The position numbers are program-made. A DNA stretch of 14,289 nucleotides from a virus (lineage: Duplodnaviria; Heunggongvirae; Uroviricota; Caudoviricetes), in the IMG/VR virus record IMGVR_UViG_2713896784_000007, one strand, 5' to 3'. Shown in pieces: positions 3,001 to 9,000 of the stretch. Each line of letters starts with the position of its first letter. The first letter of the stretch is position 1.

Positions 3001-6000
3001 TTTTTTTACAACGCTTTGTATTTAATAGTATTGTTTTTTAGCGTGGGTGTATTGCCTCGGCGATGTAAGGAGAGATCAGAATTGCGTTGTTTAGTGAGTT
3101 GTATCTATTTATTTTCCAATAAATACAATTGGTTATGTGTTTTTTTGGGCGAGAGGAAAAGAAAACCCGGCATGGAGGCCGGGTTGATGATTAGCGGTGT
3201 GGCCTTGAGCGATAATGCTCACACACATGTTCAAGATTTCCATGCCTTATCCGTTCATAGGCATTCACATGAACTTCTCGATCGAATTGGTCATTCAAAT
3301 TGTATGTAGACATCTGTGTTTTCTCATATTGGCGGCAGCCCTACAACCGCTTGAAAAAATGTACCAGACGCGCTAAGGTTACATCGCAAATATTGTGTAC
3401 CTTAACAAGGGCTCCTTTTGGAGGCTCTGGTTAAACAGCATCAATGTCGGACTGGGGAGTTGGACATTGTGCTGAATGCTTTTGCATTATTGAGGCCGAA
3501 CGTAAACCTTCAGAATTGAAGAGATGCGTTCGGCTTCTTCGTTTGTGATATCGTTAGGAATGCCTTTAATCGTTACTGTAACCCCTGATTCAGGTCGAAG
3601 AACTACTGGAAGATCATAGGTATGAAGTGCATTAGCCTTGCCTTCGACTTTTGTTGGTTCGCCAGTCAAATCTTTTTCCTCACTGGATTCTTTGTCAATC
3701 GGAGTGTATGGGATTTCTTCACCAGACTGGAAAGCTACAAACTTTTTGATTGCACTTTCCATGCGGCTTTTATATGCAGTAATGCTGCTGTCGCTAGGCT
3801 TCGGCTCAGTTGCGTTGATGTATCGCTCGGCAAGCTCATTCACATCAAGCTGAGTAACATCACCCATTTCCTCTTCTTGGACTACCGTTAAGAGGCGAGC
3901 GGATGAGTTTTTTAAATTTCGAGCGGTGGCCTCCTTCATTATGTTCAGCGACATAAGCTCTTCAAGGAAGTCCTTGAATGCCTGCACGCTAACGTTTGAC
4001 TTTGCCATTTGCTCTCTCTCTAAGTTATTGACTCAGATCGAGTTTATCCAGGAATTGATTTGCATGCAAGACTCAAGTCTTGAGAATTTCCGTTCAAGAT
4101 CCACTCTCAATAAAAAAGGCCGCACCTCTGCGACCTTTCATCTCCTAAATCTCTTTTCTCTTACCTAAAGAAACAGCAGGCTGGGTCAGCCCTAACAACT
4201 TCAAGTGCATCGGTCAGAGAAAGCTCCGTGCTATACAGGTGTTATTTCATATCTTTTTGCATCCAATAAATTTTCCATCTGTCCAGAGAGCGGATGCACT
4301 TGATTCTTGTTGATGGCAGGACGTTTTTTCACCTGCCTCACCCTGCCATACAGGACGCTGCTCACCGATATCTATCGTCCGGTCATTGATGTTATAGACA
4401 ATATCCAGATCATTACGGATATACTCAGATGGCCTTATGCTTTCAATGAATAGATGAACTTCTTTTTGACCGCTTGATACTCATGGCCATTAAACTCCAT
4501 CTATCCTCTTTACCCAAACGTCTCTTCAGGCCATTGGCTGGCGATAACTTTCCCCACAACGGAACAACTCTCATTGCATGGGATCATTGGATATTGCGGG
4601 TTTAGTGGTTGTAGAAACACCTGACCGCTATCCCTGATCAGTTTCTTGAAGGTAAATTCATCACCACCAAGTCTGGCTATGCAGAAATCGCCGGGCTCAA
4701 CAGCTTGCTCAGGGTCAACCAGAATTAACATCCCGTCAGGAAAACTAGGTTTGGAACCTGTTGGTGCGGTCATTGAGTTACCTTCAACCTCAAGCCAGAA
4801 TGCAGAGTCACTGGCTTTTTTGGTTGTGCTTACCAATCTCTCCGCATCACCTTTGGTAAAGGTTCTGAGTTCTGGAGAGAACATCCCAGCCTGAACATGA
4901 GAAAAAACAGGGTACTCATATTGTTTTTTAACTGGGGCCGATGAGTATTCGCCAACAGGTGAAAATGTCCCGTCGTGGTTGAATGATATGTTATCAATAC
5001 CAAGGTATTTAAACACCACACCAATATCACTAAGAGATGGATGACGAGATCCGCGCAACCAGTGTCCAATTCCACCCTGCGTCATACCTAGCTCTTCGGC
5101 TAACTTCTCTTGAGTTATGCCGAGCTCTTTCATTCTGGATCTAGCCAGTTCATACCATTTCATTTTCATGTCCTTATTATTACGCTCTGTACTGGAACCA
5201 TCCATGCACAATGTGTATTTTTACTTGTATTTGAGAAGTACATATTGTATTTTTTTTATTCGTGGTTACTATGGAGGGCATATGAGCAACCTACGAAAAT
5301 ATCGAGAGTCACTGAATATCTCTCAAACAACACTTGCTAAGGCAGTTGGATGCACACAGGGAGCTATCGGACATTGGGAATCTGGTCGTCGCTTCCCAGA
5401 CCTTAAAACATGCCGTGCTCTTGTTGCGTGTCTAAACAAGTTAGGCGCAAAAGTAAGTCTTGATGACGTGTTCCCGCCGGAGCACAAAGCCGCTTAATAA
5501 GCGGAGCCGCTCTTTGTAACAACGGACATTCGTCCTACGTCGCTGAAAAGCGAGTCCCAAGATATCTGACCAACTAAGGCCATATGCGTTTCCACGCATA
5601 CCTTTCAACTAACTATTCACTATTGGAAATCTTAAGAAATGGAACGAACAAGTTACAGCAAACTATCACAGCGCGACGTTGATCGCGCAGAAACAGATTT
5701 ACTCATCAACCTGTCAACGCTTACACAGCGCGGTCTGGCAAAGATGATTGGCTGTCATGAATCGAAGATAAGCAGAACGGACTGGCGGTTTATTGCTTCG
5801 GTCTTGTGTGCTTTCGGAATGGCATCAGACATCAGTCCGATTAGCAGGGCTTTTAAGTATGCGCTTGATGAAATCACAAAGAAAAAATCCCCGGCTGCCA
5901 CCGAGGATTTTAAGCAAATTGATATGCAATTCTGAGGGAATTACTGGATCAATCCACAGGAGTAATTATGACAAAACGTCGTAAGAAATACCAGGAAAAA

Positions 6001-9000
6001 GAAGAGATTCGACACCCTGATTCACCTGAGGGATTAGTGGTAGCCGCAGCAAATAACAGGGCGTTCGCAGAGCGCCTTGTTGGTGTTTACAGACTAGCCA
6101 AAGCAGGAGTGAAACATGGGCGTCGTTAAGTTAGCTGATTACAGGCCTCAACTGGAGGTCGTGGAGCATCGCGTGGCAGATACCGAAGATGGTTTCATGC
6201 GCGTTGCTAACGAGATTACCGACAGTCTGCTGATGGCTGATTTAACCGTCCGGCAGTTGAAGGTGATGCTCGCTATCATGCGCAAGACATACGGATTCAA
6301 TAAGCCGATGGATCGACTCACAAACACGCAGATAGCAGCCATGACAGGTATTCATCACACTCATGTTTGCGCTGCCAAGCGCCAGCTTATTGAGCGTAAA
6401 TTCCTCATTGCTGATGGCGTGAAAATCGGAGTGAACAAGGTGGTTTCTCAGTGGATTAGCCAGGACAGCTTAACATTAGCTAAAACAGCTAATAAAACAT
6501 TAGCCAAGTCGGCTAATGGGTATAAGCCAAGTCAGCTAAACACAAAAGACAATATACAAAAGACAATAAATACAAATACCCCCTTACCCCCTAACGGGGA
6601 TGGCGATGGGCAGGTTAAACCTGAACGTCGCAAGGCAGAACGAATCGACTACGAATCCTTCCTGAACGCCTACAACACCGAAGTCGGTGACAGACTTCCA
6701 CACGCTGTTGCGGTCAACGAGAAACGAAAACGCCGCCTGAAGAAAATTATCCCGCAACTGAAAACGCCAAACGTGGACGGTTTCAGAGCGTATGTCAGGG
6801 CGTTTGTGCATCAGGCCAAGCCGTTTTACTTCGGAGACAACGACACGGGCTGGACGGCAGATTTTGATTACCTGCTGAGGGAAGATTCGTTAACGGGAGT
6901 TCGGGAAGGGAAGTTTGCAGACAGGGGGATTGCATGAGACAGGATATCGAAGCTAGCGTTATCGGTGGCCTGCTGATTGGTGGATTAACTCCAACCGCCA
7001 GTGACGTTCTGGCAACGCTGGAGCCGGAAGCGTTTTCAATTCCGCTCTACCGGAAAGCCTTCGAGGTTATTCGCAAGCAGGCGAGAAACAGAAACCTAAT
7101 CGATGCGCTGATGGTTGCCGAGGCGTGCGGAGAGGAGCATTTCACGTCAATCCTGATGACCAGCAAAAACTGCCCGAGTGCCGCAAACCTGAAGGGATAT
7201 GCCGGAATGGTCGCGGATAACTATCACCGCCGTCTGGTGCTGGAAATCATGGATGAAATGCGTGAACCAATCCAAAGCGGAACCATCGACGCATCGAGTC
7301 AGGCGATGGATGAACTTGTAAAGCGTCTTTCAGCCATCAGAAAGCCCCGTGACGAGGTTAAACCTGTACGGTTAGGGGAAATCATCACTGACTACACTGA
7401 CACGCTTGACAGGCGTCTGAGGAACGGAGAAGAGTCAGATACCCTGAAGACCGGAATCGAAGAGCTTGACGCTATCACTGGAGGGATGAACGCAGAAGAC
7501 CTGGTGATTATCGCCGCTCGTCCTGGTATGGGGAAAACCGAACTGGCGCTGAAGATTGCCGAAGGTGTGGCAAGCCGCGTTATTCCTGGTTCTGACGTCC
7601 GGCGCGGGGTATTGATTTTCTCAATGGAAATGAGCGCATTGCAGATTGCAGAGCGAAGCATTGCCAACGCCGGGAGGATGTCGGTTAGCGTACTGCGAAA
7701 TCCTGCATCGATGGATGACGAGGGCTGGGCACGTGTTGCTAACGGCATGAGTCAGCTTGCAGATTTGGATGTATGGGTAGTCGATGCTTCGCGGTTATCG
7801 GTCGAAGAAATACGCTCAATCGCAGAACGGCATAAGCAGGAAAATCCAAACCTGTCACTCATCATGGCGGATTATCTTGGCCTGATTGAGAAGCCGAAAG
7901 CAGACCGCAACGACCTCGCAATTGCTCACATCTCCGGAAGCCTGAAGGCGATGGCGAAAGACCTGAAAACACCGGTTATCTCCCTGAGTCAGCTTTCGCG
8001 CGATGTTGAGAAGCGACCAAACAAACGCCCGACAAACGCAGATTTGCGTGATTCAGGAAGCATTGAACAGGACGCAGACTCAATCATCATGCTCTATCGG
8101 GAAGCGGTATATGATGAGAACAGTAGCGCCGCGCCATTTGCTGAAATCATCGTGACGAAAAACCGTTTTGGCTCGCTTGGTACAGTTTACCAGCGGTTCT
8201 GTAACGGACACTTTGTTGCATGTGACCAGGATGAAGCCAGACAGATTTGCACAGCATCAAATGCACCTGCTGCGCGTGGCAGACGATATGCACAAGGGGC
8301 TGACGTATGACCATCTACATCACTGAGTTAATAACAGGCCTGCTGGTAATCGCAGGCCTTTTTATTTGGGGGAGAGGGAAGTGAACGATAGCTACCGACA
8401 GTTTGAAAACTGGTGGTCAAAAGACAAAAGCCAGTTCACGGGAGACGATGAATTAAAAGAGTTTGCCTGGGTGATATGGCAGGCATCGCGCTCTGCTATT
8501 GAACTGGATATCGACTGGCCCGAATCGAATGACGACCTTTGGAAAGATGGTGAAGAAGGTGCTTATGCGATGGGTTATGAGGATGGGCGTGACAAAACGG
8601 TAATTGCAGTAATGAAAGCCATCAGGGCCGCAGGAATCAAAGAAAAGAATTTCGATTAAGCAAATATCACTTCAATAAATCGCTTTTAAGGCATCACAAT
8701 CGCTCTGTGGTGAGGTAAGCACGTGCAAGGTATACCGATAAGCAGCGAGAATGAAAAATGCGTCAGAATGCGTTTGAGGAGGTTTTAAGAAATGAGTACG
8801 ATAGCTGAGCTTGTCAGGGCTAATTTTCGTGAAGAGTTGGTGCGTTGGTATCGGTATCGTTCATCGTCCAGTTTGCCGCTTGATGAGTTGTATGAGCATT
8901 CACCTGCCGCACGACGCTATCCGCGTGACCGTGTTCTTCGACGGTTGTTCAAACTCAACAATGAGTTTCAGCGCAACAGAATTATCCGGAGTCTGGATTT

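What the first reader, a model, noticed from the sequence alone, without database searches (positions are those of the whole stretch)
5968..6129. Strong-RBS small basic ORF between cII and O, overlapping the oop promoter region
A 53-codon ORF with AGGAG at ideal spacing overlaps the O start and sits where the oop-like antisense RNA initiates on the other strand. As I recall, lambda has no gene here. If it is real, its translation and oop transcription would be spatially coupled.
Basis: seen in the sequence. Interest (0 to 1): 0.4.

Follow-up and report, generated by a model that had tools for sequence, protein, structure and literature searches.

The report
Known small gene before replication initiator
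The 53-codon ORF is a real, evolutionarily conserved small phage gene (the HK97 gp53 / Nil2 "ORF53" family) lying between the oop antisense-RNA promoter and the replication initiator gene, but it is already annotated and its arrangement already described, so only its function is still unknown.

Summary
ORF 5968-6129 (+) has 53 codons, AGGAG 5 nt before the ATG, a predicted pI of 10.7, and a 14-nt overlap with the O-like initiator gene. Its start codon lies inside the -10 hexamer of the lambda-type oop promoter on the other strand.

It is a genuine gene. All 17 diverged copies from Enterobacterales (57-100% identity) are intact. Median dN/dS is 0.17, and 0.13 in the central codons that overlap no known signal. 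Only this frame is open in every copy.

It is not new. The identical Nil2 record calls it "ORF53", HK97 calls it gp53, Sf6 gene 42 and ES18 gp58, and it is PHROG 1331. Hayes et al. 2012 already describe the cII-oop-"orf"-O-P layout and note that lambda lacks the orf.

What I add:
- The gene always abuts the initiator, whatever lies upstream.
- It occurs only in replication modules that encode their own helicase.
- It shares this slot with two unrelated small-gene families: P22 orf48 (DUF2740) and PHROG 2519.
- Lambda-P-type modules have an empty slot (73 of 73 loci).

Function is unknown. My best inference is a translationally coupled accessory protein of the replication module.

The parts
5639..5935 (+). 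cII-type transcriptional activator gene. Its 3' end is overlapped by the oop-like antisense RNA.
   Evidence: Pfam Phage_CII E 6.3e-32; annotated cII in Nil2 and HK97.
5881..5957 (-). Predicted oop-like antisense RNA, about 77 nt. The 5' end at ~5957 is set by homology to lambda oop. The intrinsic terminator hairpin is at 5911..5884, followed by a U-run.
   Evidence: Alignment with lambda; terminator scan; the same architecture, with varying stem sequences, in 20 of 21 related loci; oop annotated at this place in HK629 and P22. The transcript itself was not observed here.
5958..5994 (-). pO (oop promoter) region. The -10 hexamer CATAAT is at 5965-5970, preceded by TG (extended -10). A weak candidate -35, CTGGTA, is at 5989-5994 with an 18-nt spacer.
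   Evidence: Homology to lambda pO. Mutating the ATTAT -10 inactivates lambda pO (Hayes 2012). The -10 is conserved in 20 of 21 loci, with better -35 hexamers in diverged loci. Caveat: the strict consensus scan reports no promoter here.
5958..5962 (+). Shine-Dalgarno AGGAG of ORF53, 5 nt before the ATG. It is homologous to the SD of lambda gene O.
5968..6129 (+). ORF53: a 53-aa basic protein of the HK97 gp53 / Sf6 gp42 / ES18 gp58 family (PHROG 1331). It is the first cistron of the replication module.
6105..6129 (+). ORF53/O junction: the SD of O (AGGAG, 6105-6109), the O start codon at 6116, and the ORF53 stop at 6127-6129 (14-nt overlap, ATGGGCGTCGTTAA). The geometry suggests translational coupling.
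   Evidence: the same stop/start overlap in all 17 diverged loci.
6116..6937 (+). Replication initiator (O-like, HK97 gp54 type).
   Evidence: Pfam Phage_rep_O E 5.8e-33.
6934..8310 (+). Phage-encoded DnaB-type replicative helicase. This type of partner accompanies ORF53 in every complete locus examined.
   Evidence: Pfam DnaB_C E 9.5e-78.

Best explanation
SHOWN: ORF53 is a bona fide protein-coding gene under purifying selection. It belongs to the already annotated HK97 gp53 / Nil2 ORF53 / Sf6 gp42 / ES18 gp58 family (PHROG 1331), which is confined to lambdoid phages and prophages of Enterobacterales. It is the first cistron to the right of the conserved oop/pO boundary block. It uses the RBS and ATG that lambda uses for gene O, so its start codon sits inside the pO -10 hexamer. 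Its stop always overlaps the start codon of the replication initiator.

INFERRED: it is transcribed from pR with cII, O and the helicase gene, and is translated early and efficiently. Terminating ribosomes feed the overlapping initiator start (translational coupling). The product has a disordered, highly charged N-terminal tail and a two-helix C-terminal part. I think it most likely acts in trans as a dispensable accessory factor of replication modules that bring their own helicase, for example by modulating origin-initiator-helicase assembly or initiator availability.

I put the gene and its architecture at about 0.95 and the replication-accessory role at about 0.35. The confidence given below is a blend of the two.
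For: Real gene:
- 17 of 17 diverged genomic copies are intact at 52-55 codons, each with an SD and an ATG.
- Median pairwise dN/dS is 0.17, and 0.125 for central codons 13-49, which overlap no known signal. Third codon positions vary in 52 of 52 columns against 28 of 52 for second positions. All indels are whole codons.
- There are no stops in this frame against 11-55 in the other five. Pooled pN/pS is 0.32 here and 1.2-2.1 in four of the other five frames. The wobble-sharing antisense frame gives 0.40, but it is interrupted by stops.

Family and annotation: PHROG 1331, E 1.4e-37, full length; annotated as ORF53, Gp53, gene 42 and gp58; at least 80% of the region is present in 561 of 5426 complete E. 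coli genomes.

Shared initiation region and pO; Hayes 2012.

Tied to the initiator rather than to cII: the upstream neighbour may be a cII allele, YdaT, a KilAC antirepressor or a clamp-like protein, but the downstream neighbour is always an initiator whose ATG lies inside the ORF53 3' end.

Own-helicase modules only:
- DnaB-type helicase in 17 of 17 genomic loci and 76 of 77 evaluable viral loci. The exception, L026, is a deletion remnant.
- A T7 gp4-like primase-helicase in ES18.
- Never with lambda P: 73 of 73 lambda-P loci have an empty slot.

Structure: residues 1-19 disordered, helices at 20-29 and 31-46.
Against: - No experimental or homology-based functional evidence exists: no Pfam, NCBIfam or PADLOC hit, no PDB sequence or fold match, and no functional literature.
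- The AF2 model is only moderately confident (mean pLDDT 69).
- The association with own-helicase modules rests on few independent lineages. All lambda-P loci sampled are at least 98% identical to lambda P, so it could be historical linkage rather than function.
- An identical ORF53 protein sits next to three different initiator architectures and helicases only 30% identical to each other. That argues against a specific co-evolved protein partner in the module.
- The same slot is filled by unrelated proteins in other phages and is empty in lambda, as expected for an accessory or 'moron' hotspot.
- Expression, meaning mRNA, ribosome occupancy or protein, was not examined here.
Confidence: 0.55

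Rival explanations
1. ORF53 is an accessory ('moron-like') early gene. Its product targets a host factor or a defence system (host takeover, counter-defence or exclusion). It sits at the oop/pO-initiator junction only because that mosaic boundary tolerates insertions and provides a strong ready-made initiation region.
For: - The slot holds at least three unrelated small-gene families (PHROG 1331; DUF2740/P22 orf48; PHROG 2519) and is empty in lambda. That is typical of accessory-gene hotspots.
- An identical ORF53 protein occurs with different cII alleles, three initiator types and very different helicases.
- ORF53 subtypes such as the 2-aa insertion variants follow host genus (Enterobacter, Citrobacter) rather than neighbouring gene type.
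- It is small, basic and expressed early, like many phage host-modulating peptides (general knowledge).
Against: - No hit in PADLOC, and none of the three slot proteins appears in the supplementary files of the one accessory-gene screen I searched.
- The gene is strictly adjacent to the initiator and overlaps its start, even where cII is not the upstream neighbour.
- None of 73 lambda-P-type modules has any occupant, whereas 74 of 74 evaluable P22-gp12-type modules have one. A generic insertion hotspot would be expected to be filled in both.
Confidence: 0.3
2. The ORF works mainly in cis, as a translated spacer or leader. Its translation delivers ribosomes to the initiator start and moves the initiator's own RBS about 150 nt away from the oop:mRNA duplex and its RNase III cleavage site. 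The peptide itself is unimportant.
For: - The stop/start overlap with the initiator is conserved in all loci. P22 orf48 overlaps gene 18 by 8 nt, and PHROG 2519 ends 2 nt before its initiator.
- Three unrelated sequences can fill the slot.
- The predicted oop 5' end abuts the SD of the first cistron.
Against: - The amino-acid sequence is strongly constrained in the central region, where there is no overlapping signal (dN/dS 0.125, conserved FAER/GLVVAA motifs).
- O has its own strong SD (AGGAG, 6 nt before the ATG), so coupling is not obviously required.
- Lambda manages with O directly at this initiation region.
Confidence: 0.1
3. The ORF is not a functional gene. It is either a chance ORF kept open by the constraints of pO and the O initiation region, or a decaying relic of the N-terminus of a replaced initiator gene.
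For: - ORFs of this length are common by chance in the window.
- The first ~12 codons and the last ~8 codons do overlap other signals.
- Another slot family, PHROG 2519, does resemble an initiator N-terminal fragment (hhalign probability 82%).
Against: - Copies are intact in all 17 diverged species, with near-saturated synonymous change (pS 0.5-0.78) but pN of only 0.05-0.28.
- The selection signal is frame-specific.
- ORF53 shows no similarity to initiator N-termini (hhalign probability 0.1-0.5%) and no sub-threshold Phage_rep_O hit.
Confidence: 0.03

Closest known systems
HK97 gp53 / Nil2 ORF53 / Sf6 gene 42 / ES18 gp58 / epsilon34 gp49 (PHROG 1331, function unknown)
   Same: Same protein (100% identical in HK97, Sf6 and Nil2), same position between cII/oop and the initiator, and the same overlap with the initiator start.
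   Different: Nothing: the window's ORF is a member of this family. No member has a known function.
P22 orf48 (Pfam DUF2740, PHROG 1913)
   Same: Same slot between oop and the initiator (gene 18). It has the identical 28-nt initiation region, ACTGGATCAATCCACAGGAGTAATTATG, with the annotated oop promoter over its start. It is small (48 aa) and basic (pI 10.4), its stop overlaps the initiator start, and a DnaB-type helicase follows.
   Different: No detectable sequence homology (hhalign probability 0.1-0.4%). It is a positional analogue, not a relative.
Lambda cII-oop-pO-O arrangement
   Same: The oop body, the terminator, the pO -10, the SD and the ATG are homologous, and the first two codons (Met-Thr) are shared. 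The pO -10 overlapping the start codon has been verified experimentally in lambda (Hayes 2012).
   Different: In lambda this initiation region starts gene O directly and there is no small ORF. Lambda uses the P loader and host DnaB rather than a phage helicase.
PHROG 2519, an 86-90 aa protein of some P22-like and lambdoid prophages
   Same: A third alternative occupant of the same slot. It starts at the same initiation region, lies immediately upstream of an initiator, and belongs to DnaB-type modules.
   Different: Unrelated to ORF53 (hhalign probability 0.6%). It is longer, and its C-terminal half resembles the N-terminal start of Phage_rep_O (probability 82%).

Membership tests
HK97 gp53 family (PHROG 1331) | Full-length match to the family profile | tested here: met
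   phrog_1331 E 1.4e-37, residues 1-53 matched to profile positions 1-53 of 53; 100% identical to HK97 Gp53, Sf6 gene 42 and Nil2 ORF53.
HK97 gp53 family (PHROG 1331) | Position: immediately upstream of the replication initiator and overlapping its start, to the right of oop/pO | tested here: met
   Window geometry; the same in 17 diverged loci and in HK97, HK629, HK75, ES18 and vB_EhrS_49.
HK97 gp53 family (PHROG 1331) | Protein-level purifying selection (a real gene rather than an annotation artefact) | tested here: met
   dN/dS 0.17 overall and 0.125 in the central codons; frame-specific signal.
DUF2740 (P22 orf48) | Match to Pfam PF10872 or homology to orf48 | tested here: not met
   No Pfam hit for ORF53 at E<=1; hhalign probability 0.1% and 0.4%. 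P22 orf48 itself matches at E 2e-28.
Lambda-type oop / pO antisense unit (opposite strand, overlapping the ORF start) | -10 hexamer and transcription start homologous to lambda pO/oop | tested here: met
   Alignment A1; TG-CATAAT at 5965-5970 (-); the -10 is conserved in 20 of 21 loci. Caveat: the strict sigma-70 consensus scan finds no promoter because the -35 is weak.
Lambda-type oop / pO antisense unit (opposite strand, overlapping the ORF start) | Short RNA ending in an intrinsic terminator that overlaps the 3' end of cII | tested here: met
   Hairpin at 5911..5884 (-) plus a U-run; cII ends at 5935; an equivalent hairpin with a different stem sequence in related loci.
Lambda-type oop / pO antisense unit (opposite strand, overlapping the ORF start) | The transcript is actually made and down-regulates cII | not testable with these tools
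   Needs RNA-seq or Northern blotting. No Rfam family matched this region at E<=1.
Relic of an initiator (Phage_rep_O) N-terminus | Detectable similarity to initiator N-terminal sequence | tested here: not met
   hhalign against two initiator N-terminal profiles gives probability 0.1% and 0.5%; no sub-threshold Pfam hit.
Purely cis-acting leader / upstream ORF | Peptide sequence free to vary (no amino-acid-level constraint) | tested here: not met
   Central-region dN/dS 0.125, with 7 invariant and 15 nearly invariant residues across 30 sequences.

The most novel reading that the evidence does not exclude
ORF53, P22 orf48 (DUF2740) and PHROG 2519 would be three non-homologous but functionally equivalent small subunits of lambdoid replication modules that carry their own helicase (DnaB-type or gp4-like). 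They would be made in step with the initiator and would help load or regulate the phage helicase at ori, or control initiator stability. That is a role which lambda, relying on P and host DnaB, does not need. This would add an unrecognised component to a textbook replication system.
Probability: 0.2. Interest if true: 0.55.

Novelty: already known. Interest (0 to 1): 0.2.

Why it matters
As submitted, the finding re-discovers an annotated hypothetical gene, so its direct value is low.

Its residual value is that this very common gene still has no known function. At least 80% of the region is present in about 10% of complete E. coli genomes, including many O157:H7 Stx prophages. It sits at the hinge between the lysis-lysogeny switch (cII/oop) and the replication genes.

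The comparative pattern found here gives a concrete, testable hypothesis for a small-protein component of phage replication modules. The slot is always filled, by one of three unrelated small genes, in the own-helicase modules sampled, and always empty in lambda-P modules. Replication of Stx prophages is relevant to Shiga-toxin production.

Tried and rejected
- **Domain and family searches.** Pfam, NCBIfam and PADLOC gave nothing for ORF53. PHROGs gave only a family of unknown function.
- **Structure.** The PDB sequence-profile search found no hits. The AF2 model is a disordered tail plus two helices (pLDDT 69), and Foldseek against the PDB found no hits. I did not search BFVD, because the model is short and of low confidence.
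- **Remote homology.** An exhaustive HMM search of 1.84 billion representatives gave only 24 short proteins of the same family, with no fusion to larger proteins.
- **Homology to P22 orf48.** Rejected.
- **Relic of an initiator N-terminus.** Rejected for ORF53.
- **Programmed frameshift fusing ORF53 to O.** Considered and rejected from the sequence. The O frame has a conserved TGA two codons before its ATG (GTGAAACATG), which leaves no room for a shift site.
- **Literature.**
  - 'HK97 gp53' returned only unrelated gp53 proteins.
  - 'DUF2740' returned no papers.
  - The 'orf48' of Silas et al. is their own numbering (gnarl1), and none of the three slot proteins occurs in their supplementary files.
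  - The P22 papers mention orf48 only as part of cloned fragments.
- **The 80 IMG/VR loci.** They are almost identical at the DNA level (66 of 80 identical) and were selected for 100% protein identity. I therefore used them only for gene context, not for the selection test.
- **DUF2740 versus PHROG 2519.** They share a short motif, but the support is inconclusive.

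
Full report
**What the window is.** The region is the immunity and replication segment of a lambdoid Stx phage. 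Window 5600-6400 is 100% identical to phage Nil2 (AJ413274), Stx2 phage 1717 and several Stx2a prophages, and 97% identical to HK97. The gene order is:
- cI-like repressor, 4510-5211 (-);
- a cro-like gene ending at 5497 (ORF list; annotated cro in Nil2);
- cII, 5639-5935 (Pfam Phage_CII);
- the ORF in question, 5968-6129;
- an O-like initiator, 6116-6937 (Phage_rep_O);
- a DnaB-type helicase, 6934-8310.

**Checking the observation.**
- The ORF has 53 codons and an ATG start. AGGAG lies at 5958-5962, 5 nt upstream.
- The predicted protein is very basic (pI 10.69, 14 K+R against 6 D+E).
- The ORF overlaps the initiator's ATG by 14 nt.
- On the other strand, alignment with lambda shows the oop body and terminator are conserved. 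The hairpin is at 5911..5884.
- The lambda oop 5' end maps to about 5957. The lambda coordinate 38675 is from memory, but it agrees with Hayes 2012, who place the OOP 5' end at about -10 from the ATG.
- The pO -10 hexamer (CATAAT on the minus strand, 5965-5970, preceded by TG) contains the ORF's start codon.
- Lambda has only 32 nt between cII and O, and no gene.

ORF length alone is not beyond chance. The window has 46 ATG-ORFs of this size or longer, against about 24 in shuffled sequence.

**Is it a gene?** Yes. A scan of one genome per species found 17 loci in Edwardsiella, Trabulsiella, Yokenella, Enterobacter, Citrobacter, Chimaeribacter, Serratia, Rahnella, Brenneria and others, at 57-100% protein identity. 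Two records are labelled Bacillota and Chryseobacterium; I suspect contamination or mislabelling, but I did not check.
- All copies are intact at 52-55 codons, with an ATG, an SD-like motif, and a stop that overlaps a downstream ATG.
- Nei-Gojobori analysis gives a median pairwise dN/dS of 0.17. For codons 13-49, which overlap neither pO nor the O initiation region, it is 0.125.
- Third codon positions vary in 52 of 52 columns, against 32 for first positions and 28 for second positions. All indels are whole codons.
- The annotated frame has no stops in 16 sequences, against 11-55 stops in the other five frames.
- Pooled pN/pS is 0.32 in the annotated frame and 1.2-2.1 in four of the other five. 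The exception is the antisense frame that shares wobble positions (0.40), which is interrupted by stops.

**Is it new?** No.
- The identical Nil2 record annotates it as 'ORF53; unknown' (CAC95087.1).
- HK97 annotates Gp53. HK629 and HK75 annotate it as similar to gp53. Sf6 has gene 42, epsilon34 gp49, g341c gp44, and ES18 gp58 ('function unknown; similar to phage HK97 gene 53').
- It matches PHROG 1331 over its full length (E 1.4e-37, function unknown).
- PGAP annotates it as a hypothetical protein. At least 80% of the 201-nt region is present in 561 of 5426 complete E. coli genomes.
- Hayes et al. [quoted passage not shown] They align 23 lambdoid phages, including Nil2 and HK97, around the 33-bp oop/pO block, with position 1 set at the ATG of lambda O, of the P22 orf48 homologue or of the HK97 gp53 homologue. 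They also show that mutating the ATTAT -10 inactivates pO.
- The P22 RefSeq record annotates the oop promoter directly over the start of orf48.

**What the comparison adds.**

*(a) The initiation region is shared.* The SD, the ATG and the first two codons are homologous to those of lambda gene O. The 28 nt are identical to those of P22 orf48. The first cistron of whichever replication module lies to the right of the oop/pO boundary starts at this ATG. The overlap with pO is therefore a property of the boundary block and not of ORF53. In 20 of 21 loci examined, a -10-like hexamer overlaps or abuts the start codon, and a short RNA ending in a hairpin and U-run follows. In diverged loci a good -35 (TTGAAT, TTGAGT or TTGAAA, 16-17 nt spacer) lies in ORF53 codons ~7-9. 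In the window itself the -35 is weak, and the strict promoter scan reports nothing.

*(b) ORF53 belongs with the initiator, not with cII.* The upstream neighbour can be a cII allele, a YdaT-like protein, a KilAC antirepressor or a clamp-like protein. The downstream neighbour is always an initiator whose ATG lies within the ORF53 3' end. The initiators are of at least three architectures: Phage_rep_O with an HK97-type C-terminus, Phage_rep_O with other C-termini, and a non-Pfam Sf6-type. They nevertheless share their first ~10 residues.

*(c) The partner helicase is always phage-encoded.* It is DnaB-type in 17 of 17 genomic loci and in 76 of 77 evaluable viral loci. The exception is a deletion remnant in which a Q-like antiterminator ORF (my reading of the translation; not checked against a family library) follows a truncated O. 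In ES18 it is a T7 gp4-like primase-helicase.

*(d) The slot has alternative occupants.*
- Among 74 evaluable loci around P22-gp12-type helicases, 37 carry DUF2740 (P22 orf48), 19 carry ORF53 and 18 carry an 86-90 aa protein (PHROG 2519). None is empty.
- Among 73 evaluable loci around lambda-P-type loaders, all have an empty 36-38 nt gap.
- The three families are mutually unrelated as far as ORF53 is concerned (hhalign probability <=0.6%).

Caveat: the lambda-P sample is essentially one lineage (at least 98% identical), so the contrast counts few independent events.

**The protein.** The family is small and self-contained. It gave 68 clusters in the word-indexed search, all named hypothetical and all from Enterobacterales. 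The exhaustive HMM search gave only 24 representative clusters, all 29-84 aa, with no fusions. AF2 with the family alignment predicts a disordered, highly charged N-terminal tail (residues 1-19) and two helices (20-29 and 31-46), with pLDDT 79-87 in the helical part and a mean of 69. Neither sequence nor fold search finds a solved relative. The conserved residues are Q9, L23, A27, F33, A34, R36 and R52, together with the GLVVAA / FAER / GRR motifs.

**How it most likely works.** The steps that are shown are: a real gene under selection; an initiation region shared with pO; a stop/start overlap with the initiator; constant adjacency to the initiator; and occurrence only in own-helicase modules. 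The steps that are inferred are: co-transcription from pR; efficient early translation; translational coupling to O; and a trans-acting role of the peptide in the replication module.
- **Replication accessory (about 0.35).** I favour this because of (b), (c) and (d).
- **Accessory host-directed or counter-defence gene in a permissive hotspot (about 0.3).** This is favoured by the interchangeability of unrelated families, and by the fact that an identical ORF53 protein sits beside very different initiators and helicases.
- **Purely cis-acting spacer or leader (about 0.1).** This is disfavoured by the amino-acid constraint in the central region.
- **Non-functional ORF or initiator relic.** This is effectively excluded.

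**Verdict.** The feature is an already annotated, already described small gene of unknown function. Interest is low (0.2). There is a modest upside if the link between slot genes and phage-encoded helicases proves functional.

Noticed in passing
L103 (P22) 32349-32495; L105 2529-2675; L186-L265: The slot between oop/pO and the initiator holds three unrelated small-gene families, all starting at the same conserved initiation region: ORF53 (PHROG 1331), P22 orf48 (DUF2740) and an 86-90 aa protein (PHROG 2519). Of 74 evaluable P22-gp12-type loci, 37, 19 and 18 carry DUF2740, ORF53 and PHROG 2519 respectively, and none is empty. All 73 evaluable lambda-P-type loci have an empty slot.
   Followed up: partly
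L212 1421-1681; L258 ~1382-1654: The C-terminal half of PHROG 2519 resembles the N-terminal start of the Phage_rep_O winged-helix domain (hhalign probability 82%, E 1e-5; Pfam sub-threshold E 0.03). It may be a captured initiator fragment. DUF2740 and PHROG 2519 share an HKxxxRxRFLxS motif, but the support is inconclusive.
   Followed up: partly
L103 (P22) 32349-32495: RefSeq and PHROG 1913 label P22 orf48 as 'tail protein'. That is almost certainly a mis-annotation for a 48-aa early-operon protein lying between c1 and gene 18.
   Followed up: no
window 6116-6145 and the initiator starts in L087-L102, L258: Initiators of different architectures share their first ~10 residues (MGVVKLADYR, MSNTAKIYDF). 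This resembles the lambda O N-terminus MTNTAKILNF, which I recall as the ClpX recognition motif of lambda O. A conserved N-degron could explain why the mosaic junction lies ~10 codons inside the initiator gene. The homology with phages carrying other O alleles ends at about window 6146.
   Followed up: no
window 1507-1565 (-): Rfam Lambda_thermo (the cIII thermoregulator element) matches at 88.5 bits, E 6.7e-21, so the phage carries a lambda-type cIII leader.
   Followed up: no
window 10384-10582 (+) and 11527-11610 (+): There is a cluster of Rfam hits: c4-a1b1 (45.9 bits, just below its gathering score), isrK (74.7 bits), C4 antisense RNA (66.7 bits) and sRNA-Xcc1 (79.3 bits). Together they suggest a P1/P7-like C4/ant immunity cassette; the Nil2 record title lists antA and antB, though I did not check their coordinates.
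   Followed up: no
phage records 2851, YYZ-2008, IME10, ENT47670: Several public records do not annotate ORF53 at all, or place only the O gene over it, although the ORF is intact. Annotation of this gene is therefore inconsistent across databases.
   Followed up: no
L026 2139-3541: This is a prophage remnant. O is truncated at residue 265 and is followed directly by a Q-like antiterminator ORF (my reading of the translation), so the helicase and nin region appear to be deleted. ORF53 is still intact.
   Followed up: partly
L101 (Serratia fonticola) 1955-2665: This is the only locus with no pO-like -10 or oop-like terminator upstream of ORF53. A 178-aa protein weakly similar to the DNA polymerase III beta clamp lies between cII and ORF53.
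   Followed up: no
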